From an uncultured Bacteroidota bacterium (GTDB taxonomy: Bacteria > Bacteroidota > Bacteroidia > Bacteroidales > VadinHA17), in NCBI GenBank assembly GCA_963772715.1, contig CAVYYM010000029.1:306063-370062 (forward strand): a stretch of DNA of 64,000 nucleotides. Reading direction: 5' to 3'. Below the pieces are notes generated by a model. It was not told the DNA's origin. It worked only from the letters and a program-made list of their open reading frames with translations, and searched no databases. The stretch's first letter is position 1. Each line of letters opens with the position of its first letter. The translations under genes were made by a program, and so were the position numbers. Positions 383 through 48,794 of this stretch are shown here, piece after piece.

Positions 383-415
383 AATCACCAATCACTAATC
401 ACTATTCACTATTCA
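383..415. repeat. Heptamer tandem array AATCACT/ATTCACT, ~4.7 copies
   Basis: aatcacc aatcact aatcact attcact attca; the last unit contains the TGA stop of the minus-strand repressor gene. Confidence 0.8.
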
Positions 416-1240
416 ATTAACTTCCTTTACATCGGTAATATCCTTCCCTATCTTCGCCTTGATTCTTTCGAGGTCGTTTTTCATTGCTGCGACTGCCTTT
501 ATCAGCTGCTTTTCAGGCAGTACAGGTTCCGGAAGCTCGTTGCTGATATAGTTCACGAACTTCCATATCTCCTTTACCTCGTTGATATGGACCTCATATG
601 GCTCATAAACAGGGTTAAGCGAATAGAGGACCAGCCTGCCGTCGGATTCAAGGTTATTCTCGACGATCTTGAAAACTATCCCGTCATTGATTGTGAAGAC
701 CACATATGCTTTCCCGTTCCTTATATCCCTCCAGTCCTGCACGAATTCGCCTGTCACCCAGGACCCGTCGGGTATCGGAAGCATCGAGTCGCCCTTTAGC
801 TGGAAAGTTCTGTACTTTCTCTTGTCTGAGAGGAACGGGAGCCTGAACCTCGGGAGCTCGCCAATATACTCCGGATCGGCATAGCCTGTTGCATAACCTG
901 CCTTGGCCTTTTCAGGTACAAGCTCAATGTTTTCAAGGTTGTCATCATTGACGGTAGTGGTAAGCACCCTGAGGTTGCTTCCCTTCACATAGGCATCATA
1001 TCCTCTCTCCAGCTCTCCCAGCTGGCTCTCGGAGAGCTTCGACACATCGATCTTCAGCATGGTGTCGATCGACATGTTGTAATAGCGGGAAAAGGAAACC
1101 AGAACTTCAATTCCCGGTTGCGCAACGCCGTTCTCATACCCGCTCAGGGTGGAACGCTTGAGGTTTAAGGCAACGGCAACATCATCCTGTGTCCTGCCCC
1201 TCCTTTTTCTTAAAAATTTTATGTTCGACGCGAAGTGCAT
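413..1240 (-). CDS. XRE-HTH / S24 peptidase LexA-like SOS repressor
   Basis: N-terminal HTH_3 (LRKRRGRTQDDVA...TLSGYENG), Ala-Gly cleavage site (KAKAGY), catalytic Ser (GDSM) and Lys (IVFK); divergent from dinB-dnaE2. Confidence 0.9.
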   Translation of the reverse strand: MHFASNIKFLRKRRGRTQDDVAVALNLKRSTLSGYENGVAQPGIEVLVSFSRYYNMSIDTMLKIDVSKLSESQLGELERGYDAYVKGSNLRVLTTTVNDDNLENIELVPEKAKAGYATGYADPEYIGELPRFRLPFLSDKRKYRTFQLKGDSMLPIPDGSWVTGEFVQDWRDIRNGKAYVVFTINDGIVFKIVENNLESDGRLVLYSLNPVYEPYEVHINEVKEIWKFVNYISNELPEPVLPEKQLIKAVAAMKNDLERIKAKIGKDITDVKEVN

Positions 1241-1250
1241 AATAAAAATT

Positions 1251-1290
1251 TGATTATATTGTAATCATATAATTGATTATATTTTAATCA
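1251..1290. promoter_or_regulatory. Two tandem palindromic operators TGATTA-N5-TAATCA
   Basis: TGATTATATTGTAATCA (1251-1267) and TGATTATATTTTAATCA (1274-1290) in the divergent intergenic region. Confidence 0.75.
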
Positions 1291-1296
1291 AAACTA
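1289..1296 (-). promoter_or_regulatory. Bacteroidetes -7 promoter element (TAGTTTTG) for the repressor gene
   Basis: Matches TAnnTTTG on the minus strand and overlaps the edge of operator 2. Confidence 0.55.
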
Positions 1297-1340: not shown

Positions 1341-1373
1341 GAGTGCCTAGAGTTTGGAGTACTTAAAGTTAAA
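1341..1373. repeat. Left arm of 9-mer repeat element (GAGTGCCTA/GAGTACTTA)
   Basis: gagtgccta gagtttg gagtactta aagttaaa; 32/33 identical to 3049-3081. Confidence 0.9.
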
Positions 1374-1377
1374 TAAT

Positions 1378-1737
1378 ATGGAAAATAAAGAGTTTAGTAA
1401 AAGACTTGAGAAAAGAACAAAGGCTTTTGCAATAAGTGTGATCAAATTATCTGTCAATCTTCCGAATACTGTTGAAGGGAAGGTGATCAGAAACCAGTTA
1501 ACAAAGTCCGGAACCAGTATCGGGGCAAATTATCGCGAGGCAAACAGGGCAAGGAGCAAGGCTGATTTTAAGAACAAAATCAAAATCTCTGAAAGCGAAA
1601 CTAACGAGACGTGTTACTGGCTTGAAATCATCGGAGATCTTAAATGGACCGAGCTTCAATTATTGGAATCTGCTCTTAATGAAGCAAATGAATTGCTTGC
1701 AATTTTTACATCAATCGGAAAAAATTTACAACTCTAA
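1378..1737 (+). CDS. Four helix bundle protein (TIGR02436 / 23S rRNA IVS protein / bAvd-like fold)
   Basis: Signature QLTKSGTSIGANYREA-RARSKADF--KI-I---E--ET-YWLEI; 119 aa from ATG 1378. Confidence 0.92.
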   Translation: MENKEFSKRLEKRTKAFAISVIKLSVNLPNTVEGKVIRNQLTKSGTSIGANYREANRARSKADFKNKIKISESETNETCYWLEIIGDLKWTELQLLESALNEANELLAIFTSIGKNLQL

Positions 1738-1773
1738 GTACTTTAAGTACTACTAGGCACTCTAGGCACTTTA
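1730..1773. repeat. Right arm (inverted) of 9-mer repeat element (TAGGCACTC/TAAGTACTT)
   Basis: aactc taagtactt taagtactac taggcactc taggcactt ta; units are reverse complements of the left-arm units. Contains the stop codon of the four-helix-bundle gene and ends just before the dinB ATG. Confidence 0.9.
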
Positions 1774-1775
1774 TT

Positions 1776-3041
1776 ATGTTTATAGTCGGCGACATAGAAC
1801 GTTCCATACTGCATCTTGACCTCGACACCTTCTTCGTATCGGTGGAGAGGCTCAGGAACAGCAGGCTCATCGGCAAGCCGGTGATAATCGGCGGCATGTC
1901 GGACCGTGGCGTGGTGTCGAGCTGCAGCTATGAGGCCAGGAAATACGGGGTGAGCTCTGCCATGCCCATGAAGATGGCCCGCAACATGTGTCCCGATGCC
2001 ATAATAATACGCGGCGACCATGAAGCTTACAGCAGCTACTCGAATATGGTGACCGGGATAATTGCCGAAAGAGCGCCCCTTTATGAAAAGTCATCGATCG
2101 ACGAGCACTATGTCGACATCACGGGAATGGACCGCTTCTACGGATGCTACAAGTGGTCGCACGAGCTGAGGCAGTATATAATAAAGGAGACCGGACTGCC
2201 TATCTCGATAGGGCTCTCAGTTAACAAGACCGTATCGAAGATCGCTACCGGTGAGGCAAAGCCAAATGGCGAGATAGAAGTCAGAAGAGATGTGGTACTC
2301 CCCTTTCTCGACCCCCTCTCCATCAGCAAGATACCGATGATCGGACAGAAGACATATCACGTGCTCCGCTCAATGGGCATAGCAACCATTTACACGCTGC
2401 GGAACATCCCGGCGGAGATGCTCGAAAAGCTGATGGGAAAGAACGGCATAGAGGTATGGAAAAGGGCAAACGGCATCGACTCCACTCCCGTCATAAGCTA
2501 CTCGGAGCAGAAGTCGATAAGCACCGAGCATACCTTCGAGAAGGATACCACCGACCTGGCAAGGCTTAACCAGCTGCTGGTGAGCATGGTGGAGAAAATA
2601 GCATACGATCTCAGGAAGCAGGAGAAGCTCACCTCATGCGTGACGGTGAAGATAAGATACTCGAATTTCGACACCCACACCCTGCAGAAGCGTATCCCTT
2701 ACACCGCCTTCGACCATGTTCTCACCGAAATTGCAAAAGAGCTCTTCAGCAGGATCTACCAGCGGAGAATGCTCATCCGTCTCATCGGCGTCAGGTTCAG
2801 TCACCTGGTGCGGGGAGTGCAGCAGCTCGACATGTTCGACGACACTCCCGAGAAAGTGAGCCTGTATATGGCCATGGACAAGCTCAGGAAGCGCTTCGGG
2901 CGCGATGCGGTGCGCAGGGCTGCCGGAGTGATGACCAGCAGCGAAAGGGAGGAAAAAGCCCGGAAACAGCTTGAAAACGCTGTAAAAGAGCAGGAAATGA
3001 TGGAGGAAAGATTACGCGGGTATTTTGCATATGGAAGATAG
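1776..3041 (+). CDS. dinB: DNA polymerase IV (Y family)
   Basis: HLDLDTFFVSVE, SYEARKYGV and SIDE catalytic motifs; clamp motif QLDMF; C-terminal MDKLRKRFGRDAV. Confidence 0.95.
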   Translation: MFIVGDIERSILHLDLDTFFVSVERLRNSRLIGKPVIIGGMSDRGVVSSCSYEARKYGVSSAMPMKMARNMCPDAIIIRGDHEAYSSYSNMVTGIIAERAPLYEKSSIDEHYVDITGMDRFYGCYKWSHELRQYIIKETGLPISIGLSVNKTVSKIATGEAKPNGEIEVRRDVVLPFLDPLSISKIPMIGQKTYHVLRSMGIATIYTLRNIPAEMLEKLMGKNGIEVWKRANGIDSTPVISYSEQKSISTEHTFEKDTTDLARLNQLLVSMVEKIAYDLRKQEKLTSCVTVKIRYSNFDTHTLQKRIPYTAFDHVLTEIAKELFSRIYQRRMLIRLIGVRFSHLVRGVQQLDMFDDTPEKVSLYMAMDKLRKRFGRDAVRRAAGVMTSSEREEKARKQLENAVKEQEMMEERLRGYFAYGR

Positions 3042-3123
3042 AAGTTTGGAGTGCCTAAAGTTTGGAGTACTTAAAGTTAAAAAACTCTAAGTACTTTAGG
3101 CACTCTAGGCACTTTAGGCACTT
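3042..3123. repeat. Empty copy of the 9-mer element: left and right arms joined
   Basis: aagtttg gagtgccta aagtttg gagtactta aagtt aaaa aactc taagtactt taggcactc taggcactt taggcactt; fills the dinB-dnaE2 intergenic gap. Confidence 0.9.
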
Positions 3124-3126
3124 AAT

Positions 3127-6060
3127 ATGTTTTTAAACTGTCACTCATATTACAGTCTCCGCTACGGAACAATGTCCGTGGAACAGCTGGTGCAGAAGGC
3201 TAAAGCCGCTGGTGCGGATACTATTGCCCTGACAGATATCAACAATTCGACTGCCATACCTGAATTCGCAGGCGAGTGCGCCAGGAACAGCATAAGACCG
3301 GTTGCCGGCATCGAGTTCAGGAACGGCAATGAGCTGGAATATATCGGTATAGCCCGCAACAACAAAGGAGTGAGGGAACTGAACGAGTTCCTCTCAAAGC
3401 AGAATTTCGAAAAAACGGAGGTCCCATTTCCTGCACCCCGCTTCTCCGATGCATACGTCATTTATTCACAATCGAAGCTGCCGGGACGCAAGCTTCTCGA
3501 AAATGAGCGCAAGGGAATAAGAACCGGAGAGATAAACAGGCTTCTTACCCTTCCTTCGGCCGACAGGAGCAGAATGGTAATGCTTCAGCCTGTGACATTC
3601 GCCGGCGGTGACGATATCTTCATTCACAGGAGCCTCAGGGCTGTCGACAACAATATCCTCCTCTCCCATCTCAAGCCGTCTCAATGTGCCGGTGAAAATG
3701 AATTCTTTATTCCCATGGAGCAGATAAGAAGATCTTTCGAAAGCTATCCTGATATTGTAAATGAAACTGTTAACCTGCTTAATGACTGTAATTTATCATT
3801 CGATTTCGAAAGCCATAAAAACAAGAAGCTCTTTTCTGCAAGCAGGTATGACGACAAGCTTCTTCTCGAAAAGCTTGCCTGGGACGGGATGATATACAGG
3901 TATGGAAAAAACAATAGTGAAGCACGCAAACGCATACAGCATGAGCTTGAGATAATCGACAAGCTTGGATTTTCCGCATATTTTCTCATAACCTGGGATA
4001 TCGTAAGATACTCCATGGCAAGAGGCTTTTACCACGTCGGCAGGGGAAGCGGGGCTAATTCTATAGTTGCTTACTGCCTGAAAATCACCAATGTTGACCC
4101 TATCGACCTGAACCTTTACTTCGAGAGGTTCATAAATCCGAAAAGAAGCTCCCCTCCCGATTTCGATATCGACTACTCCTGGAAGGAAAGGGACGAGGTA
4201 ATTGATTATATCTTCAAGAGATATGGTTACAGCCATACCGCCCTGCTCGGTACGATAAGCACCTTCAGGGGAAAATCGATAGTCAGGGAGCTGGGAAAGG
4301 TGCACGGACTGCCAAAGGAGGAAATTGATAATCTGATAGATAATCCTTCATCAGAGACAAACCGCAACGAAATAACCGATATCATCTTCTCAACAGGCAG
4401 CAAGATCGCAGATTTCCCCAACATGAGGAGCATACATGCAGGCGGCATACTTATCTCAGAAGAACCAGTGTCGTGCTATACCGCCCTCGACATGCCGCCA
4501 AAAGGCTTCCCCACGACACAGTGGGACATGTACACCGCAGAGGAGATCGGCTTCGAAAAACTCGACATACTGAGCCAGAGGGGAATAGGACATATCCGCG
4601 AAAGCGCCGAGATCATTCTCCGGAACCGCTCGATAGATGTGGACGTTCATGCAATACAGAAATTCAAGAGCGATCCGAAGATCAAGGAGTTCCTGAAGAG
4701 CGGCGAGACTAAAGGATGCTTCTATGTCGAGAGTCCGTCGATGCGCGGACTTCTTCAAAAACTGAGGTGCGATGATTACACGACACTTGTTGCCGCCAGC
4801 TCGATAATAAGGCCAGGCGTTGCACGCTCCGGGATGATGAGGGAATACATTTACAGATTTCATAACCCCGACAAATTCAAGTATTTGCATCCAGTAATGA
4901 AAGAACAGCTTGAGGAGACCTTCGGGGTGATGGTATACCAGGAGGATGTGCTGAAGGTTTGCCATCATTTTGCAGGACTCGACCTTGCAGATGCCGATAC
5001 ACTCCGCAGGGCAATGAGCGGAAAATACCGCTCGAAACAGGAGATGCAGAGAATAGTGGAGAAGTTTTTCTCCAACTGCCGCGAAAAGGGATACAGTGAC
5101 GAGCTGACAAAAGAGGTGTGGCGGCAGATAGAGTCGTTCGCAGGCTATTCCTTTTCGAAGGCACACTCCGCATCCTATGCAGTGGAAAGCTTTCAGAGCC
5201 TTTACCTGAAGGCTCACTACCCTATCGAATTCATGGTTGCAGTGATAAACAACTTCGGCGGTTTTTACCGCACATGGGTATATGTACACGAGGCCAAAAG
5301 GTACGGGGCATCTATTCAACTGCCCTGTGTGAACAAGAGCAACTACAAAACAACCATTTATGGCACAGATATTTATCTTGGATTTATTCATGTAATGAGC
5401 CTGGAGGACCGTCTTGGGGTTTCGATCGAAGAGAACCGCCGGGCTGAGGGTCCCTACAGGGATATGAACGACTTTGTGACAAGACTTAATCCCGGGCTCG
5501 AGCAGATGATACTTCTTATCAGGACAGGTGCATTCAGGTTCACGGGAAAGAAAAAAGGAGAGCTGCTTTGGGAGGCTCACCTGCTGATGAATAAGAGCAA
5601 GCCTGAGCCGATGAGACCGCTATTCTCTCCTCCTGTTAAAAAGTTCATCCTTCCCGATCTGGAACACAGCAGTCTCGACGACGCATATGATGAGATCGAG
5701 CTGTTAAGCTTCCCGGTATCCATGACCTGGTTCGACATGCTCGAGACATCATTCCGCGGCGAGGTTCCGGCAGATGAGCTGATCAGGAATGTGGGCAGAA
5801 AAGTCAGGATGGTCGGGCATCTTGTTACGATCAAGTATATCAAGACAATAAAAAGGGAATGGATGAATTTCGGATGCTTCATCGATCATGAAGGCAATTT
5901 CTTTGACACCACGCATTTCCCGCAATCACTTGTCAGCTACCCGTTCAAGGGAGCAGGAACTTACCTGATCCTCGGCAAGGTAGTCGAAGAGTTCGGCTAT
6001 GCATCAGTCGAGGTGGAGAAGATGGCCAAGCTGCCGGTAAAACCGGATAAGAGATATTGA
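3127..6060 (+). CDS. dnaE2: DNA polymerase III alpha subunit, error-prone DnaE2 type
   Basis: PHP domain, GRGSGANS, PDFDID, KLDILS and FSKAHS motifs, C-terminal OB fold; short (977 aa) and in an operon with dinB. Confidence 0.9.
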   Translation: MFLNCHSYYSLRYGTMSVEQLVQKAKAAGADTIALTDINNSTAIPEFAGECARNSIRPVAGIEFRNGNELEYIGIARNNKGVRELNEFLSKQNFEKTEVPFPAPRFSDAYVIYSQSKLPGRKLLENERKGIRTGEINRLLTLPSADRSRMVMLQPVTFAGGDDIFIHRSLRAVDNNILLSHLKPSQCAGENEFFIPMEQIRRSFESYPDIVNETVNLLNDCNLSFDFESHKNKKLFSASRYDDKLLLEKLAWDGMIYRYGKNNSEARKRIQHELEIIDKLGFSAYFLITWDIVRYSMARGFYHVGRGSGANSIVAYCLKITNVDPIDLNLYFERFINPKRSSPPDFDIDYSWKERDEVIDYIFKRYGYSHTALLGTISTFRGKSIVRELGKVHGLPKEEIDNLIDNPSSETNRNEITDIIFSTGSKIADFPNMRSIHAGGILISEEPVSCYTALDMPPKGFPTTQWDMYTAEEIGFEKLDILSQRGIGHIRESAEIILRNRSIDVDVHAIQKFKSDPKIKEFLKSGETKGCFYVESPSMRGLLQKLRCDDYTTLVAASSIIRPGVARSGMMREYIYRFHNPDKFKYLHPVMKEQLEETFGVMVYQEDVLKVCHHFAGLDLADADTLRRAMSGKYRSKQEMQRIVEKFFSNCREKGYSDELTKEVWRQIESFAGYSFSKAHSASYAVESFQSLYLKAHYPIEFMVAVINNFGGFYRTWVYVHEAKRYGASIQLPCVNKSNYKTTIYGTDIYLGFIHVMSLEDRLGVSIEENRRAEGPYRDMNDFVTRLNPGLEQMILLIRTGAFRFTGKKKGELLWEAHLLMNKSKPEPMRPLFSPPVKKFILPDLEHSSLDDAYDEIELLSFPVSMTWFDMLETSFRGEVPADELIRNVGRKVRMVGHLVTIKYIKTIKREWMNFGCFIDHEGNFFDTTHFPQSLVSYPFKGAGTYLILGKVVEEFGYASVEVEKMAKLPVKPDKRY

Positions 6061-13389: not shown

Positions 13390-13569
13390 TTTCAGATTTT
13401 GTCATCCCTGGAAATACTCAAATCCGTTTTAAATTCATTTTTTGACTTGCTCCCACCCTTTCCGGTCAAATATTGAAATCTCAGGGGGAAAGGAGATCGA
13501 AACGAAGTGAAGATTCCGCTTCAGCGGAAAAGGAGAAAGGGGAAGAGATTGGATAATACTAGAAACGTA

Positions 13570-13667
13570 GACTGGAGACTGAAGACCGAAGATGGAATGG
13601 GGACGGAAGATGGAGAGACGGAAGACGGAAGACGGAAGACGGAAGACGGAAGACGGTGAAGACGGAA
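13570..13667. repeat. Heptamer tandem array GACGGAA
   Basis: Five perfect copies at 13617-13651 plus degenerate copies (gactgga, gactgaa, gaccgaa, gatggaa); lies 12 bp past the stop of the 13680-14240 gene. Confidence 0.9.
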
Positions 13668-13679
13668 GTTGTAGCCGTC

Positions 13680-33502: not shown

Positions 33503-33537
33503 AAAGACAAAAGACAAAAGACAAAAGATAAAAGAAC
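33503..33537. repeat. Heptamer array AAAGACA, ~5 copies
   Basis: aaagaca x3, aaagata, aaagaac; starts 4 bp after the stop codon. Confidence 0.75.
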
Positions 33538-33601
33538 AAAGTAAAAAGGAAGGACGAACAGTAAAATTTAGTAATATTGACAACAAAATAAAAGTTTAGC
33601 T

Positions 33602-41353: not shown

Positions 41354-41411
41354 AAGGTTTAAGGTTTAAGGTGCAAGGTAAAGACCATATACCGTGTACC
41401 GTATACCGCTA
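41354..41411. repeat. Inverted pair of heptamer arrays (AAGGTNN x4 / ACCRNNN x4)
   Basis: aaggttt aaggttt aaggtgc aaggtaa ag accatat accgtgt accgtat accgcta; abuts the galM stop. Confidence 0.75.
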
Positions 41412-48714: not shown

Positions 48715-48748
48715 AAGTTTGGAGTGCCTAGAGTGCCTAGAGTGCCTA
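48715..48748. repeat. Lone left arm of the 9-mer element (GAGTGCCTA x3)
   Basis: aagtttg gagtgccta gagtgccta gagtgccta starting at the base after the nuoD stop; first 16 bp identical to 3042-3057. Confidence 0.88.
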
Positions 48749-48794
48749 GGAGAGTGTAGAAGAGTTAAAAAATGATTGGTAATTGAAGTAATAT

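What the first reader, a model, noticed from the sequence alone, without database searches (positions are those of the whole stretch)
1341..3123. Four-helix-bundle gene in an inverted-repeat cassette, with an empty copy of the same cassette 1.3 kb away
Seen: left arm 1341-1373 and inverted right arm 1730-1773 enclose the four-helix-bundle ORF, whose stop codon lies in the right arm. At 3042-3123 the same arms (left 32/33 identical, right starting with the same AACTCTAAGTACTTTA) are joined directly, with one A in place of the 356-bp gene segment (1374-1729). In the transcript the arms can pair, looping out either the ORF or just AAAA. Both right arms end 3-4 nt before an ATG. No transposase or integrase is nearby. 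Known: this family was first found inside stem-loop intervening sequences of 23S rRNA and shares the fold of Avd, the accessory protein of diversity-generating retroelements. Inference: an 'mRNA intervening-sequence' element in which the gene is gained or lost between repeat arms, possibly via an excised RNA, without disrupting flanking genes.
Basis: partly seen in the sequence, partly recalled or inferred. Interest (0 to 1): 0.85.

Follow-up and report, generated by a model that had tools for sequence, protein, structure and literature searches.

The report
Small gene inside a repeat-built hairpin
A small four-helix-bundle gene sits in the loop of a DNA hairpin whose arms are strings of a 9-letter repeat, the same hairpin occurs many times without the gene, and this design recurs around related genes in many bacterial phyla, linking two long-unexplained features of bacterial genomes.

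Summary
The arms, the 32/33 identity and the gene-less copy are as described.

The arms are tandem 9-nt units (AGTGCCTAA type on the 5' side, TTAGGCACT on the 3' side). The 'empty copy' is one of about 13-15 gene-less hairpins, plus about 10 one-armed arrays, of this unit family in a genome with a single TIGR02436 gene.

At both junctions of the dinB operon, genus relatives show three states: no hairpin, empty hairpin, or filled hairpin. The gene has moved between the two junctions.

The same nonamers flank this protein lineage in Bacteroidota and in loci labelled as five other phyla (68 of 76 loci, against 2 of 62 control windows). This holds although fourfold sites are saturated (36.6% identical).

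Other lineages of the family, including those on Nostoc, Planktothrix, Chlorohelix and Treponema plasmids, carry their own 7-10-nt units.

The cassette has no transposase, integrase or reverse transcriptase nearby. It is co-oriented with the downstream gene in 70 of 72 loci.

It is the same kind of element as the ORF-bearing 23S rRNA intervening sequence, but it lives between genes of ordinary operons and has dispersed gene-less copies.

RNase III excision and binding of the repeats by the protein are inferred, not shown. Two tests found no RNA-strand signature. RNA-mediated gain or loss is unsupported; recombination between homologous arms is the simpler route.

The parts
413..1240 (-). LexA-like repressor gene (HTH_3 + Peptidase_S24), divergent from the operon that holds the cassette
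   Evidence: HTH_3 1.4e-13, Peptidase_S24 6e-09. The same gene stands upstream in related cassette loci L062, L063 and L107.
1249..1292 (.). Operator-like palindrome pair (TTGATTATATTGTAATCA / TGATTATATTTTAATCAAA) in the promoter region. The cassette lies downstream of it, in the operon leader.
   Evidence: I1, D8. The same motif precedes dinB in relatives that lack the cassette (L034, L037, L055, L053). Its role as an operator is inferred.
1341..1373 (+). 5' arm of the filled hairpin: units AGTGCCTAG, AGTTTGGAG and TACTTAAAG, then AGTT at the top of the stem
1378..1737 (+). Four-helix-bundle gene (119 aa, TIGR02436 / PF05635), the only one found in this genome
   Evidence: Closest solved structure is 2rld_A, 1.8e-17.
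1730..1773 (+). 3' arm of the filled hairpin: AACT, then CTAAGTACT, TTAAGTACT, (A)CTAGGCACT and CTAGGCACT. It contains the stop codon.
   Evidence: (D1, D2, I13, I17, I18).
1776..3041 (+). dinB (DNA polymerase IV family)
3042..3123 (+). Gene-less hairpin of the same nonamer family, at the junction between dinB and the DnaE-like gene
   Evidence: (I7, I15, I20). The same junction is filled with a 4HB gene in G016, G018 and G044.
3127..6060 (+). DnaE-family polymerase gene. DnaE2-like by context, but below the NCBIfam cut-off for 'error-prone DNA polymerase'.
48722..48749 (+). One-armed array of the same nonamer (AGTGCCTAG x3) elsewhere in the window

Best explanation
This is a foldback cassette of the 23S-IVS type that lives in an mRNA operon. 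A promoter-less gene for a four-helix-bundle (4HB) protein (TIGR02436/PF05635, the family that includes the DGR accessory protein Avd) lies in the loop of a long hairpin. The hairpin arms are arrays of a short unit specific to that protein lineage. Here the unit is 9 nt: AGTGCCTAA type in the 5' arm and its complement in the 3' arm.

Shown:
1. The cassette sits in the leader of a dinB / DnaE-like operon, co-oriented with it, and no mobility enzyme lies nearby.
2. The 'empty copy' is one of about 13-15 gene-less hairpins and about 10 one-armed arrays of the same unit in this genome.
3. At orthologous intercistronic sites, relatives show no hairpin, an empty hairpin or a filled hairpin.
4. The gene has moved between the two junctions of the same operon.
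5. The unit family travels with the protein lineage across phyla and stays conserved while neutral sites are saturated. The protein is under purifying selection.
6. Other lineages of the family, in at least eight phyla, have arms built of their own 7-10-nt units.

Inferred:
1. The gene is expressed by read-through from the host operon.
2. In that transcript the arms form a duplex of about 30 bp that RNase III cuts, as in the Coxiella IVS. This would free the loop and uncouple the neighbouring cistrons.
3. The 4HB oligomer recognises its own repeat unit, as RNA or DNA, and so controls processing or maintenance of both filled and gene-less copies.
4. The gene enters and leaves hairpins by homologous recombination between arms. 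Gene-less copies arise by deletion and may also spread on their own.
For: Family and architecture:
- Family membership.
- Arms and folds.
- One TIGR02436 match in G000, against 28 clusters of units. These are 1 filled hairpin (2 clusters), 13 two-armed gene-less hairpins, 2 with a diverged partner arm, 10 one-armed arrays and 1 spurious cluster.
- All 15 gene-less hairpins are intergenic.

dinB loci of 30 genus genomes:
- 4HB upstream of dinB in 5, between dinB and the DnaE-like gene in 3, and a truncated remnant in G005.
- Empty nonamer hairpins at the same sites in G050, G024, G008 and G012.
- Spacers of 4-19 nt with no hairpin in others.

Three further gene-less hairpins are present in G000 and G050 (one also in G001 and G009). 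In other relatives they are absent, and a spacer of 12-13 nt or less (anchors nearly abutting at the second site) or unrelated sequence of 44-74 nt stands there instead.

Movement: in a tree of 20 proteins the two G044 copies are sisters (100/98). An upstream-site copy also nests among downstream-site copies (92/90).

The unit travels with the lineage:
- Of 80 loci encoding 63-88% identical proteins, 76 had enough flank. Of these, 63 had inverted arms above the maximum of 30 shuffles and 52 scored 30 or more.
- 68 of 76 have two or more phased AGT units, against 2 of 62 control windows. AGTGCCTAA is the commonest unit both in the 56 remaining loci (mostly named Bacteroidota) and in the 20 loci from other phyla.
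- Fourfold sites are identical at 630 of 1721 positions, 36.6%.

Other lineages:
- 24 of 31 loci in relatives.
- 15 of 17 loci in five genomes of other phyla.
- 8 of 8 plasmid loci examined of 30 records with a match.
- In each set the unit differs by lineage. Arms share 6-mers in 3 of the 4 pairs at 55% protein identity or more (the three above 65%); below 55% the only such pair is 1 of 186.

Orientation and context:
- The downstream gene is co-oriented in 70 of 72 loci and the upstream gene in 62 of 74. The contexts are many unrelated operons.
- Array counts in 41 genus genomes have a median of 21 in the 11 with the lineage and 1.5 in the 30 without it. Kin are not independent.

Feasibility and precedent:
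- An RNase III gene is present.
- In the Coxiella IVS a 28-bp stem is cut by RNase III, and tandem GACAGAT heptamers of variable number precede the S23p ORF (passages of PMC4990558).
Against: - No RNA data exist for this organism. No listed run is RNA.
- Three tests for an RNA-strand signature were null. G:U-compatible mismatches were 98 sense and 92 antisense, p 0.72. The arm duplex was more stable on the sense strand in 41 of 81 loci. 8 of 12 gene-less hairpins fold better on the transcribed strand. So pairing is kept at Watson-Crick level on both strands. That fits a DNA-level constraint at least as well as an RNA one.
- Binding of the repeats by the protein is untested.
- Nonamer arrays persist in 14 of 30 genus genomes in which the lineage was not found. 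G000 also holds hairpins of at least seven other unit families with no second 4HB gene. The hairpins therefore do not need the gene in order to persist.
- In this genus 9 of 11 lineage-positive genomes carry the gene at the dinB locus. Much of the pattern there is vertical descent with loss.
- No target-site duplication was seen, and no insertion mechanism is shown.
- 7 of 31, 13 of 76 and 2 of 17 loci showed no arms above the shuffle maximum.
Confidence: 0.6

Rival explanations
1. The element works at DNA level. The arms act as DNA, either as cruciforms or single-strand hairpins, or simply as portable homology. They are the substrates for insertion, copying and deletion by host recombination or replication functions. 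The 4HB protein is a DNA-binding accessory factor of the element. Pairing of the arms in RNA is a by-product.
For: - Complementarity is kept symmetrically on both strands.
- Gene-less hairpins are present or absent at orthologous sites.
- The gene moved between two hairpins of one operon.
- In G005 a deletion ends exactly at the start of the 3' arm.
- The lineage is spread over several phyla, in unrelated operons.
Against: - No enzyme is encoded in the cassette or nearby.
- No target-site duplication was seen.
- The near-universal co-orientation with the downstream gene (70 of 72) points to a need for read-through transcription.
- The homologous IVS is processed as RNA.
- This reading is not exclusive of the best explanation.
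Confidence: 0.2
2. This is a host regulatory system. The hairpins are REP-like elements for mRNA processing or stability at intercistronic sites. The 4HB protein is a trans-acting regulator of that regulon, induced here together with the damage-inducible operon. Nothing about it is selfish or mobile.
For: - The unit sequence and the protein are both under purifying selection.
- The hairpins sit between co-directional genes.
- In Flavobacteriaceae the cassette keeps one context, an HTH_1 gene followed by TauE, across four named genera.
Against: - The gene is missing from most close relatives, which nevertheless keep hairpins.
- Contexts differ from genome to genome.
- The lineage's distribution over phyla at 63-75% identity does not follow host relationships.
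- Pseudogenes and remnants occur: G023 has a TGA inside the gene, and G005 holds a truncated copy.
Confidence: 0.12
3. The gene is gained or lost through an excised RNA that is copied back into DNA at another pair of arms.
For: It rests only on analogy: the fold is shared with Avd of diversity-generating retroelements, and the IVS is excised as RNA.
Against: - No RVT_1 match in G000, which is 87% complete.
- No template/variable repeat pair or reverse transcriptase next to the gene.
- Recombination between arms explains the sister copies at the two junctions without any RNA step.
Confidence: 0.03
4. Coincidence. Short tandem repeats arise by slippage in AT-rich spacers of these genomes, and the small gene merely happens to lie between two such arrays.
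For: G000 has about 300 arrays of period 6-12, of which 155 stand alone.
Against: - The two flanks carry the same unit in inverted order in 63 of 76, 24 of 31, 15 of 17 and 8 of 8 loci.
- The unit follows the protein lineage across phyla.
- Control windows score 2 of 62.
Confidence: 0.03

Closest known systems
ORF-bearing intervening sequences of 23S rRNA (Coxiella burnetii, Leptospira; S23p ORF). Passages of PMC4990558 were read.
   Same: The same protein family lies in the loop of a stem formed by terminal inverted repeats. Tandem heptamers of variable number stand before the ORF. The element is transcribed as part of a host transcript and carries no mobility enzyme.
   Different: This element is not in rRNA. 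It sits in the leader and the intercistronic spacers of protein-coding operons (Rfam found nothing real here, and no rRNA in 30 related loci). Both arms are whole arrays of units, dispersed gene-less copies exist, and the protein is under purifying selection rather than decaying.
REP/REPIN sequences with their RAYT gene (recalled from the literature; no paper was read for it)
   Same: A single-copy gene is flanked by inverted copies of a short repeat, which also occurs as many gene-less hairpins in intergenic sites.
   Different: RAYT is a Y1 transposase, whereas the 4HB protein has no known catalytic motif. G000 has two Y1_Tnp genes, each with its own unrelated REP hairpins. The arms here are tandem arrays, not a single palindrome.
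Intergenic heptamer repeats of unknown function: GGGAATC in Xanthomonas with 70-75 convergent pairs and GGGGA(C/T)T in Nostoc (passages of PMC4692102); TAACTGA in Beggiatoaceae (passages of PMC4679880); cyanobacterial STRR (name recalled)
   Same: These are short tandem units of 7-9 nt in intergenic spacers. They are often paired in convergent orientation so that they can form stem-loops, and they are conserved in position between close species.
   Different: Neither paper connects them with a gene. The terms '23S' and 'S23' occur 0 times in both. Here a 4HB gene lies between the paired arrays, and the unit follows the protein lineage.
Avd, accessory protein of diversity-generating retroelements (passage of PMC10053308)
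   Same: It is homologous by sequence and structure to PF05635 proteins, per the passage of PMC10053308 read; the basic pentamer and its partners are recalled.
   Different: There is no reverse transcriptase and no template/variable repeat pair at this locus or in the genome.
Foldback transposons of Drosophila and integron gene cassettes (both recalled; no paper was read)
   Same: Foldback elements have long inverted ends built of short tandem subrepeats and mostly have no coding loop. Integron cassettes are promoter-less ORFs with a hairpin-forming site, inserted co-oriented behind a host promoter.
   Different: Neither shares any homology with this element, and neither has a 4HB protein. No integrase lies near this cassette.

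Membership tests
TIGR02436 / PF05635 four-helix-bundle (23S rRNA IVS) protein family | Match to the family profile above its curated cut-off | tested here: met
   PF05635 scores 68.8 bits against 33.8. TIGR02436 scores 86.2 bits against 24. 2rld_A matches at 1.8e-17.
23S rRNA intervening sequence (IVS) element | Inserted in a 23S rRNA gene (helix 25 or 45) | tested here: not met
   It lies between a repressor gene and dinB. Rfam gives only chance miRNA-like matches.
23S rRNA intervening sequence (IVS) element | ORF enclosed by terminal inverted repeats that form a long stem | tested here: met
   (29-bp closing stem).
23S rRNA intervening sequence (IVS) element | Excision from the transcript by RNase III | not testable with these tools
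   No RNA run holds the region. An RNase III gene is present.
Diversity-generating retroelement (Avd role) | Adjacent reverse transcriptase and a template/variable repeat pair | tested here: not met
   No RVT_1 match in G000. The neighbours are a LexA-like gene and dinB.
REP/REPIN-RAYT system | The flanked single-copy gene is a Y1 (IS200/IS605-type) transposase | tested here: not met
   The gene is a 4HB protein. The two Y1_Tnp genes of G000 have other repeats.
REP/REPIN-RAYT system | Many gene-less hairpin copies of the flanking repeat in intergenic sites | tested here: met
MITE / classical DNA transposon | Target-site duplication and a related transposase-encoding master copy | tested here: not met
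   No duplication was seen at three sites that are occupied in some genomes and empty in others. No transposase lies in the cassette.
Integron gene cassette | attC site next to an integron integrase and a cassette array | tested here: not met
   No integrase family was found among 17 ORFs within about 12 kb on either side. The rest of the genome was not searched for IntI.

The most novel reading that the evidence does not exclude
Four-helix-bundle proteins of the TIGR02436 family are the missing partners of STRR-type short tandem repeats. Each protein lineage recognises its own 7-10-nt unit. Together with foldback hairpins built of that unit, it forms a class of genetic element that needs no transposase, moves by recombination between arms, and rides inside operons. 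The ORF-bearing 23S rRNA intervening sequences, the paired GGGAATC repeats of Xanthomonas and many cyanobacterial heptamer arrays would all be members or relics of this class.
Probability: 0.25. Interest if true: 0.92.

Novelty: new variant of a known kind. Interest (0 to 1): 0.78.

Why it matters
Three puzzles have stood apart for about three decades:
- what the ORF-bearing intervening sequences of 23S rRNA are;
- what the very common 'four helix bundle protein' genes do;
- why some bacteria are full of intergenic heptamer-to-nonamer tandem repeats.

This locus and its relatives put all three into one architecture: a small gene in the loop of a hairpin built of lineage-specific repeat units, with many gene-less copies.

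That gives a concrete, cheap test: does the protein bind its own unit, and does RNase III cut the stem? It also provides cultivable carriers to do it in, such as Flavivirga, Seonamhaeicola and Nostoc punctiforme.

There is a practical warning too. These cassettes sit inside operons, including cas1-cas2 and restriction or defence operons on cyanobacterial plasmids. Guilt-by-association screens may therefore mistake the gene for a component of those systems.

Eight full-text searches found no paper that links the gene family with flanking repeat arrays outside the Coxiella IVS. Supplementary files were not open, and most subscription journals are not held, so prior description cannot be excluded.

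Tried and rejected
- A profile-based scan of genome contigs failed because alignment A1 has no conserved stretch.
- The first Pfam call on neighbours exceeded the residue limit. It was resent with 140 of the 146 neighbour ORFs; the last six were not scanned.
- TRF-based pairing of arrays found only 10 inverted pairs, because the arms mix units. The k-mer 'far partner' class of 86 arrays was mostly noise. The three I read were solo 8-mer arrays upstream of or beside ordinary genes, with no cargo.
- RNA-strand tests gave no signal.
- No RNA holder was listed for the region.
- Laid contigs show no filled/empty heterogeneity at high identity. The joints from 1370-1373 to 3079-3093 carry other loop letters and are other family members. 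The joint 1279 to 1818 in X3/X4 (depth 3.7, side 29) is probably a relative without the cassette, and is too weak to use.
- Rfam found no described RNA family for the hairpin.
- RAYT as the driver is rejected, and so is a reverse transcriptase.
- 'Stop codon inside the right arm' is not a general rule: it holds in 9 of 52 loci.
- None of the 30 related 4HB loci lies in rRNA.
- Structure prediction, complex prediction, the protein atlas and the large protein searches were not used. Family membership was already clear, and none of them tests binding of nucleic acid.
Full report
**1. The observation**

- The 33-nt left arm at 1341-1373 recurs at 3049-3081 with one change.
- A single A (3082) then stands in place of 1374-1729.
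- 3083-3098 equals 1730-1745.
- The ORF at 1378-1737 ends inside the first unit of the right arm.

The repeat finder recovers the direct and inverted relations. It also shows that the arms are periodic, with a 9-nt spacing.

The ORF is a clear member of PF05635 and TIGR02436. Its closest solved relative is 2rld_A.

Its neighbours are a divergent LexA-like HTH-S24 gene, dinB and a DnaE-family polymerase gene.

As RNA the gene-less copy folds at -37.2 kcal/mol (z -5.4, 0 of 200 shuffles as good). In the filled copy the arms close a stem around the whole ORF.

No transposase or integrase family is found among 17 ORFs within about 12 kb on either side.

**2. The arms are a genome-wide repeat family**

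The arms are arrays of nonamers: AGTGCCTAA, AGTACTTAA, AGTTTGGAG and AGTGAGCTAA in the 5' arm, and their complements in the 3' arm.

The window's genome (3.97 Mb, 87% complete) has one TIGR02436 gene but 28 clusters of these units:
- the filled hairpin (2 clusters);
- 13 two-armed gene-less hairpins;
- 2 more with a diverged partner arm;
- 10 one-armed arrays, three of them at contig ends;
- 1 chance palindrome.

All 15 gene-less hairpins are intergenic, and most lie between co-directional ORFs. The 5' arm is always the AGTGCCTAA-type strand, on whichever DNA strand one reads.

One copy, C33:42402-42475, is nearly identical to the window's empty copy. So the 'empty cassette' is an ordinary member of a dispersed family, and the filled one is the exception.

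The genome also has about 300 short-unit arrays of period 6-12. These give 48 hairpin loci from at least eight unit families, plus many solo arrays upstream of genes.

Its two Y1 transposase genes carry their own unrelated REP hairpins. No reverse transcriptase family match was found.

**3. Gain and loss at orthologous sites**

I examined dinB loci of 30 genomes of the genus.
- A 4HB gene of the same lineage lies upstream of dinB in 5: G000, G002, G023 (with an internal TGA), G044 and G054.
- It lies between dinB and the DnaE-like gene in 3: G016, G018 and G044.
- G005 keeps only the first ~33-39 codons (residues 1-39 match), ending in a TGA that runs straight into the 3' arm.
- The five relatives with the most similar DinB (91-95% identical) have no 4HB gene at either site.

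At the same two sites other genomes show different states:
- gene-less nonamer hairpins (G050, G024, G008 and G012 downstream; G008 upstream);
- hairpins of other unit families;
- plain spacers of 4-19 nt.

Three further gene-less hairpins of G000 were compared with five relatives.
- All three are present in G050, and one also in G001 and G009.
- Elsewhere they are absent. A spacer of 12-13 nt or less (anchors nearly abutting at the second site) or unrelated sequence of 44-74 nt stands there instead.
- No target-site duplication is seen.

In a tree of 20 lineage proteins the two G044 copies are sisters (100/98). An upstream-site copy nests among downstream-site copies (92/90). The site label needs four changes on the tree, at least two of them forced.

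The gene has therefore moved between the two hairpins of one operon. Because the arms of the two sites are homologous (32/33 in G000), recombination or gene conversion between arms is the simplest route. This is an inference.

**4. The design is general and the unit follows the protein**

The family occurs in 36 of 41 relatives searched, with 1-19 matches each.

Around the best match of each genome, the upstream flank aligns to the reverse complement of the downstream flank above the maximum of 20 shuffles in 24 of 31 loci. The arms are arrays of 7-10-nt units that differ from locus to locus, for example GATCAGG, AGTGACA, GTTGTCA, GGTATGC, ACGACGC, TAATGCT, AGGTCTTGC and AGTTCCAA.

A scan of species genomes with the window's protein gave 509 relatives. 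The best 80 (63-88% identical) come from:
- Bacteroidales, Prolixibacteraceae, Saprospiraceae and Flavobacteriaceae isolates;
- records labelled Thermodesulfobacteriota/Desulfobacterales, Pirellulales, Phycisphaerae, Acidobacteriota and Calditrichaceae.

Of the 76 loci with enough flank:
- 63 exceed all 30 shuffles and 52 score 30 or more;
- 68 carry two or more phased AGT units, against 2 of 62 control windows 850-1000 nt away;
- AGTGCCTAA is the commonest unit both in the 56 remaining loci (mostly named Bacteroidota) and in the 20 loci from other phyla.

Fourfold-degenerate sites at conserved residues are identical at 630 of 1721 positions (36.6%), which is close to saturation. Two things follow. 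The unit sequence itself, not just complementarity, is being kept. And the protein is under purifying selection.

Among other lineages, arms share 6-mers in 3 of the 4 pairs at 55% protein identity or more (the three above 65%). Below 55% the only such pair is 1 of 186.

Two further sets gave the same picture:
- Five genomes of other phyla: 15 of 17 loci with arms, each lineage with its own unit.
- Complete plasmids of isolates: 8 of 8 examined, out of 30 records with a match. Examples are CAATTCG x4-5 on Nostoc punctiforme pNPUN02, GGTCGGA on pNPUN01 and AATCCCC/AATCGTA in Planktothrix. Others examined are Gloeocapsa, Anabaena, Pseudanabaena, Chlorohelix and Treponema.

**5. How it sits in the host**

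- The gene after the cassette is co-oriented in 70 of 72 loci.
- The gene before it is co-oriented in 62 of 74.
- Median gaps are 80-96 nt.

Contexts are unrelated operons (140 of 146 neighbour ORFs scanned). Examples by Pfam domain:
- Mur ligase - FtsW/RodA family;
- two ABC-2 permease genes;
- complex I chain 4L - Proton_antipo subunit;
- Rnf subunits;
- phosphate acetyltransferase - acetate kinase;
- two ABC ATPase genes with the oligopeptide C-terminal domain;
- histidine kinase - response regulator;
- PorP/SprF - OmpA-domain gene;
- TetR - outer membrane efflux protein.

In the window the cassette lies between a conserved operator-like palindrome and dinB, that is, in the operon leader.

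The cassette thus looks promoter-less and dependent on read-through. In that case both arms are in one transcript and can pair; the mean arm duplex is about -50 kcal/mol.

**6. Mechanism: what is shown and what is not**

The closest experimental precedent is the Coxiella IVS (passages of PMC4990558):
- a 28-bp stem of terminal inverted repeats, cut within the stem by RNase III;
- an S23p ORF in the loop;
- three tandem GACAGAT heptamers of strain-variable number before the ATG.

G000 has an RNase III gene. I therefore think RNase III processing of the arm duplex is the most likely RNA-level consequence. It remains an inference.

Three tests for a strand-specific RNA signature were null, and no RNA run holds the region.

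Conservation of the unit far beyond neutral saturation argues for sequence-specific recognition. The co-inherited 4HB protein is the obvious candidate. It belongs to a family that forms homopentameric toroids, as cited in PMC4990558, and that includes Avd (passage of PMC10053308). This too is untested.

The gene is not needed for hairpins to persist:
- 14 of the 30 genus genomes without the lineage still have 4-55 nonamer dimers;
- counts are nevertheless higher with the lineage, median 21 against 1.5, Mann-Whitney p 0.0006 (kin are not independent).

**7. Comparison with what is known**

The element works like, and is built like, an ORF-bearing 23S IVS. It fails the defining feature of lying in rRNA (and none of 30 related loci).

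It resembles the REPIN-RAYT arrangement but has no Y1 transposase. It is not a DGR.

Intergenic heptamer repeats, including 70-75 convergent pairs of GGGAATC in Xanthomonas, have been described with no known function and no associated gene (passages of PMC4692102; PMC4679880).

Eight full-text searches found no paper that links TIGR02436/PF05635 genes to flanking repeat arrays apart from the Coxiella IVS. Supplements and most subscription journals were not searchable.

**8. Verdict**

It is unsupported in its RNA-mediated mechanism.

What is new is the generality. Lineage-specific short-tandem-repeat foldback arms surround 4HB genes in many phyla. The cassettes ride inside operons. Gene-less copies are dispersed. 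The gene moves between homologous arms.

I rate it a new variant of a known kind, interest 0.78.

Noticed in passing
window 1249-1292: A pair of near-identical palindromic 18-19-mers (TTGATTATATTGTAATCA type) lies between the LexA-like gene and the operon. It is conserved upstream of dinB in relatives with and without the cassette. It is probably the repressor's operator.
   Followed up: partly
window 383-415, 13569-13668, 33503-33540, 41384-41408, 48722-48749: Further short-unit tandem arrays: AATCACT x4.7, AGACGGA-type x14, AAAGACA x5, ACCGTAT x3.6, and a one-armed AGTGCCTAG x3 array. They belong to about 300 such arrays in the genome.
   Followed up: partly
G000:C4:48226-48269, C4:34983-35022, C41:152620-152664: Solo direct arrays of the 8-mer GATTGCAC lie just upstream of or beside ordinary genes. 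They recall the TAACTGA and STRR repeats described in Beggiatoaceae and cyanobacteria. No cargo gene lies between partners.
   Followed up: partly
G000:C33:215938-216279 and C30:50386-50730: Two Y1 (IS200/IS605-type) transposase genes, each flanked by its own REP-like hairpins (for example GTCGGCTAAAGCCGAC). This is a classical RAYT-like arrangement, unrelated to the nonamers.
   Followed up: partly
L189 (Anabaena cylindrica PCC 7122 plasmid) and L192 (Pseudanabaena galeata plasmid): A 4HB gene with repeat arms lies between cas2 and cas1 on the opposite strand in L189, and just upstream of cas1 in L192. Insertions of this kind could produce the reported statistical association of '23S rRNA IVP' with CRISPR adaptation modules (figure legend of PMC10910872).
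   Followed up: no
L188 (Gloeocapsa), L187 (Planktothrix), L191 (Chlorohelix): Cassettes lie between genes of apparent restriction or defence operons: DUF1156 - Swt1-family HEPN, a helicase-domain gene and a large hypothetical gene (L187), and helicase - N-6 DNA methylase.
   Followed up: no
L005, L020, L025, L026 (tRNA) and L011 (SAM riboswitch): Several 4HB loci of other lineages lie within 70-200 nt of a tRNA gene. One lies about 350 nt from a SAM riboswitch. Stable-RNA operons may be another preferred home besides rRNA.
   Followed up: no
L043 (G005), upstream of dinB: A decayed cassette. The first ~33-39 codons of the 4HB gene (residues 1-39 match) run into a TGA that overlaps the start of the 3' arm (ACTCTAAGTACT...). 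The deletion therefore ended at the boundary between loop and arm.
   Followed up: partly
L161 (G009:C1), orthologue of the hairpin at G000:C23:218925-219017: The same gene-less hairpin here carries roughly 90 extra, non-coding-looking bases in its loop. It is a second kind of loop content besides the 4HB gene.
   Followed up: no
G009:C195:485-2008: In the relative with the most similar 4HB protein (93%), DinB matches only from residue 174 onward, a few hundred bases after the cassette. The 5' half of dinB may be deleted there, or the small contig may be misassembled.
   Followed up: no
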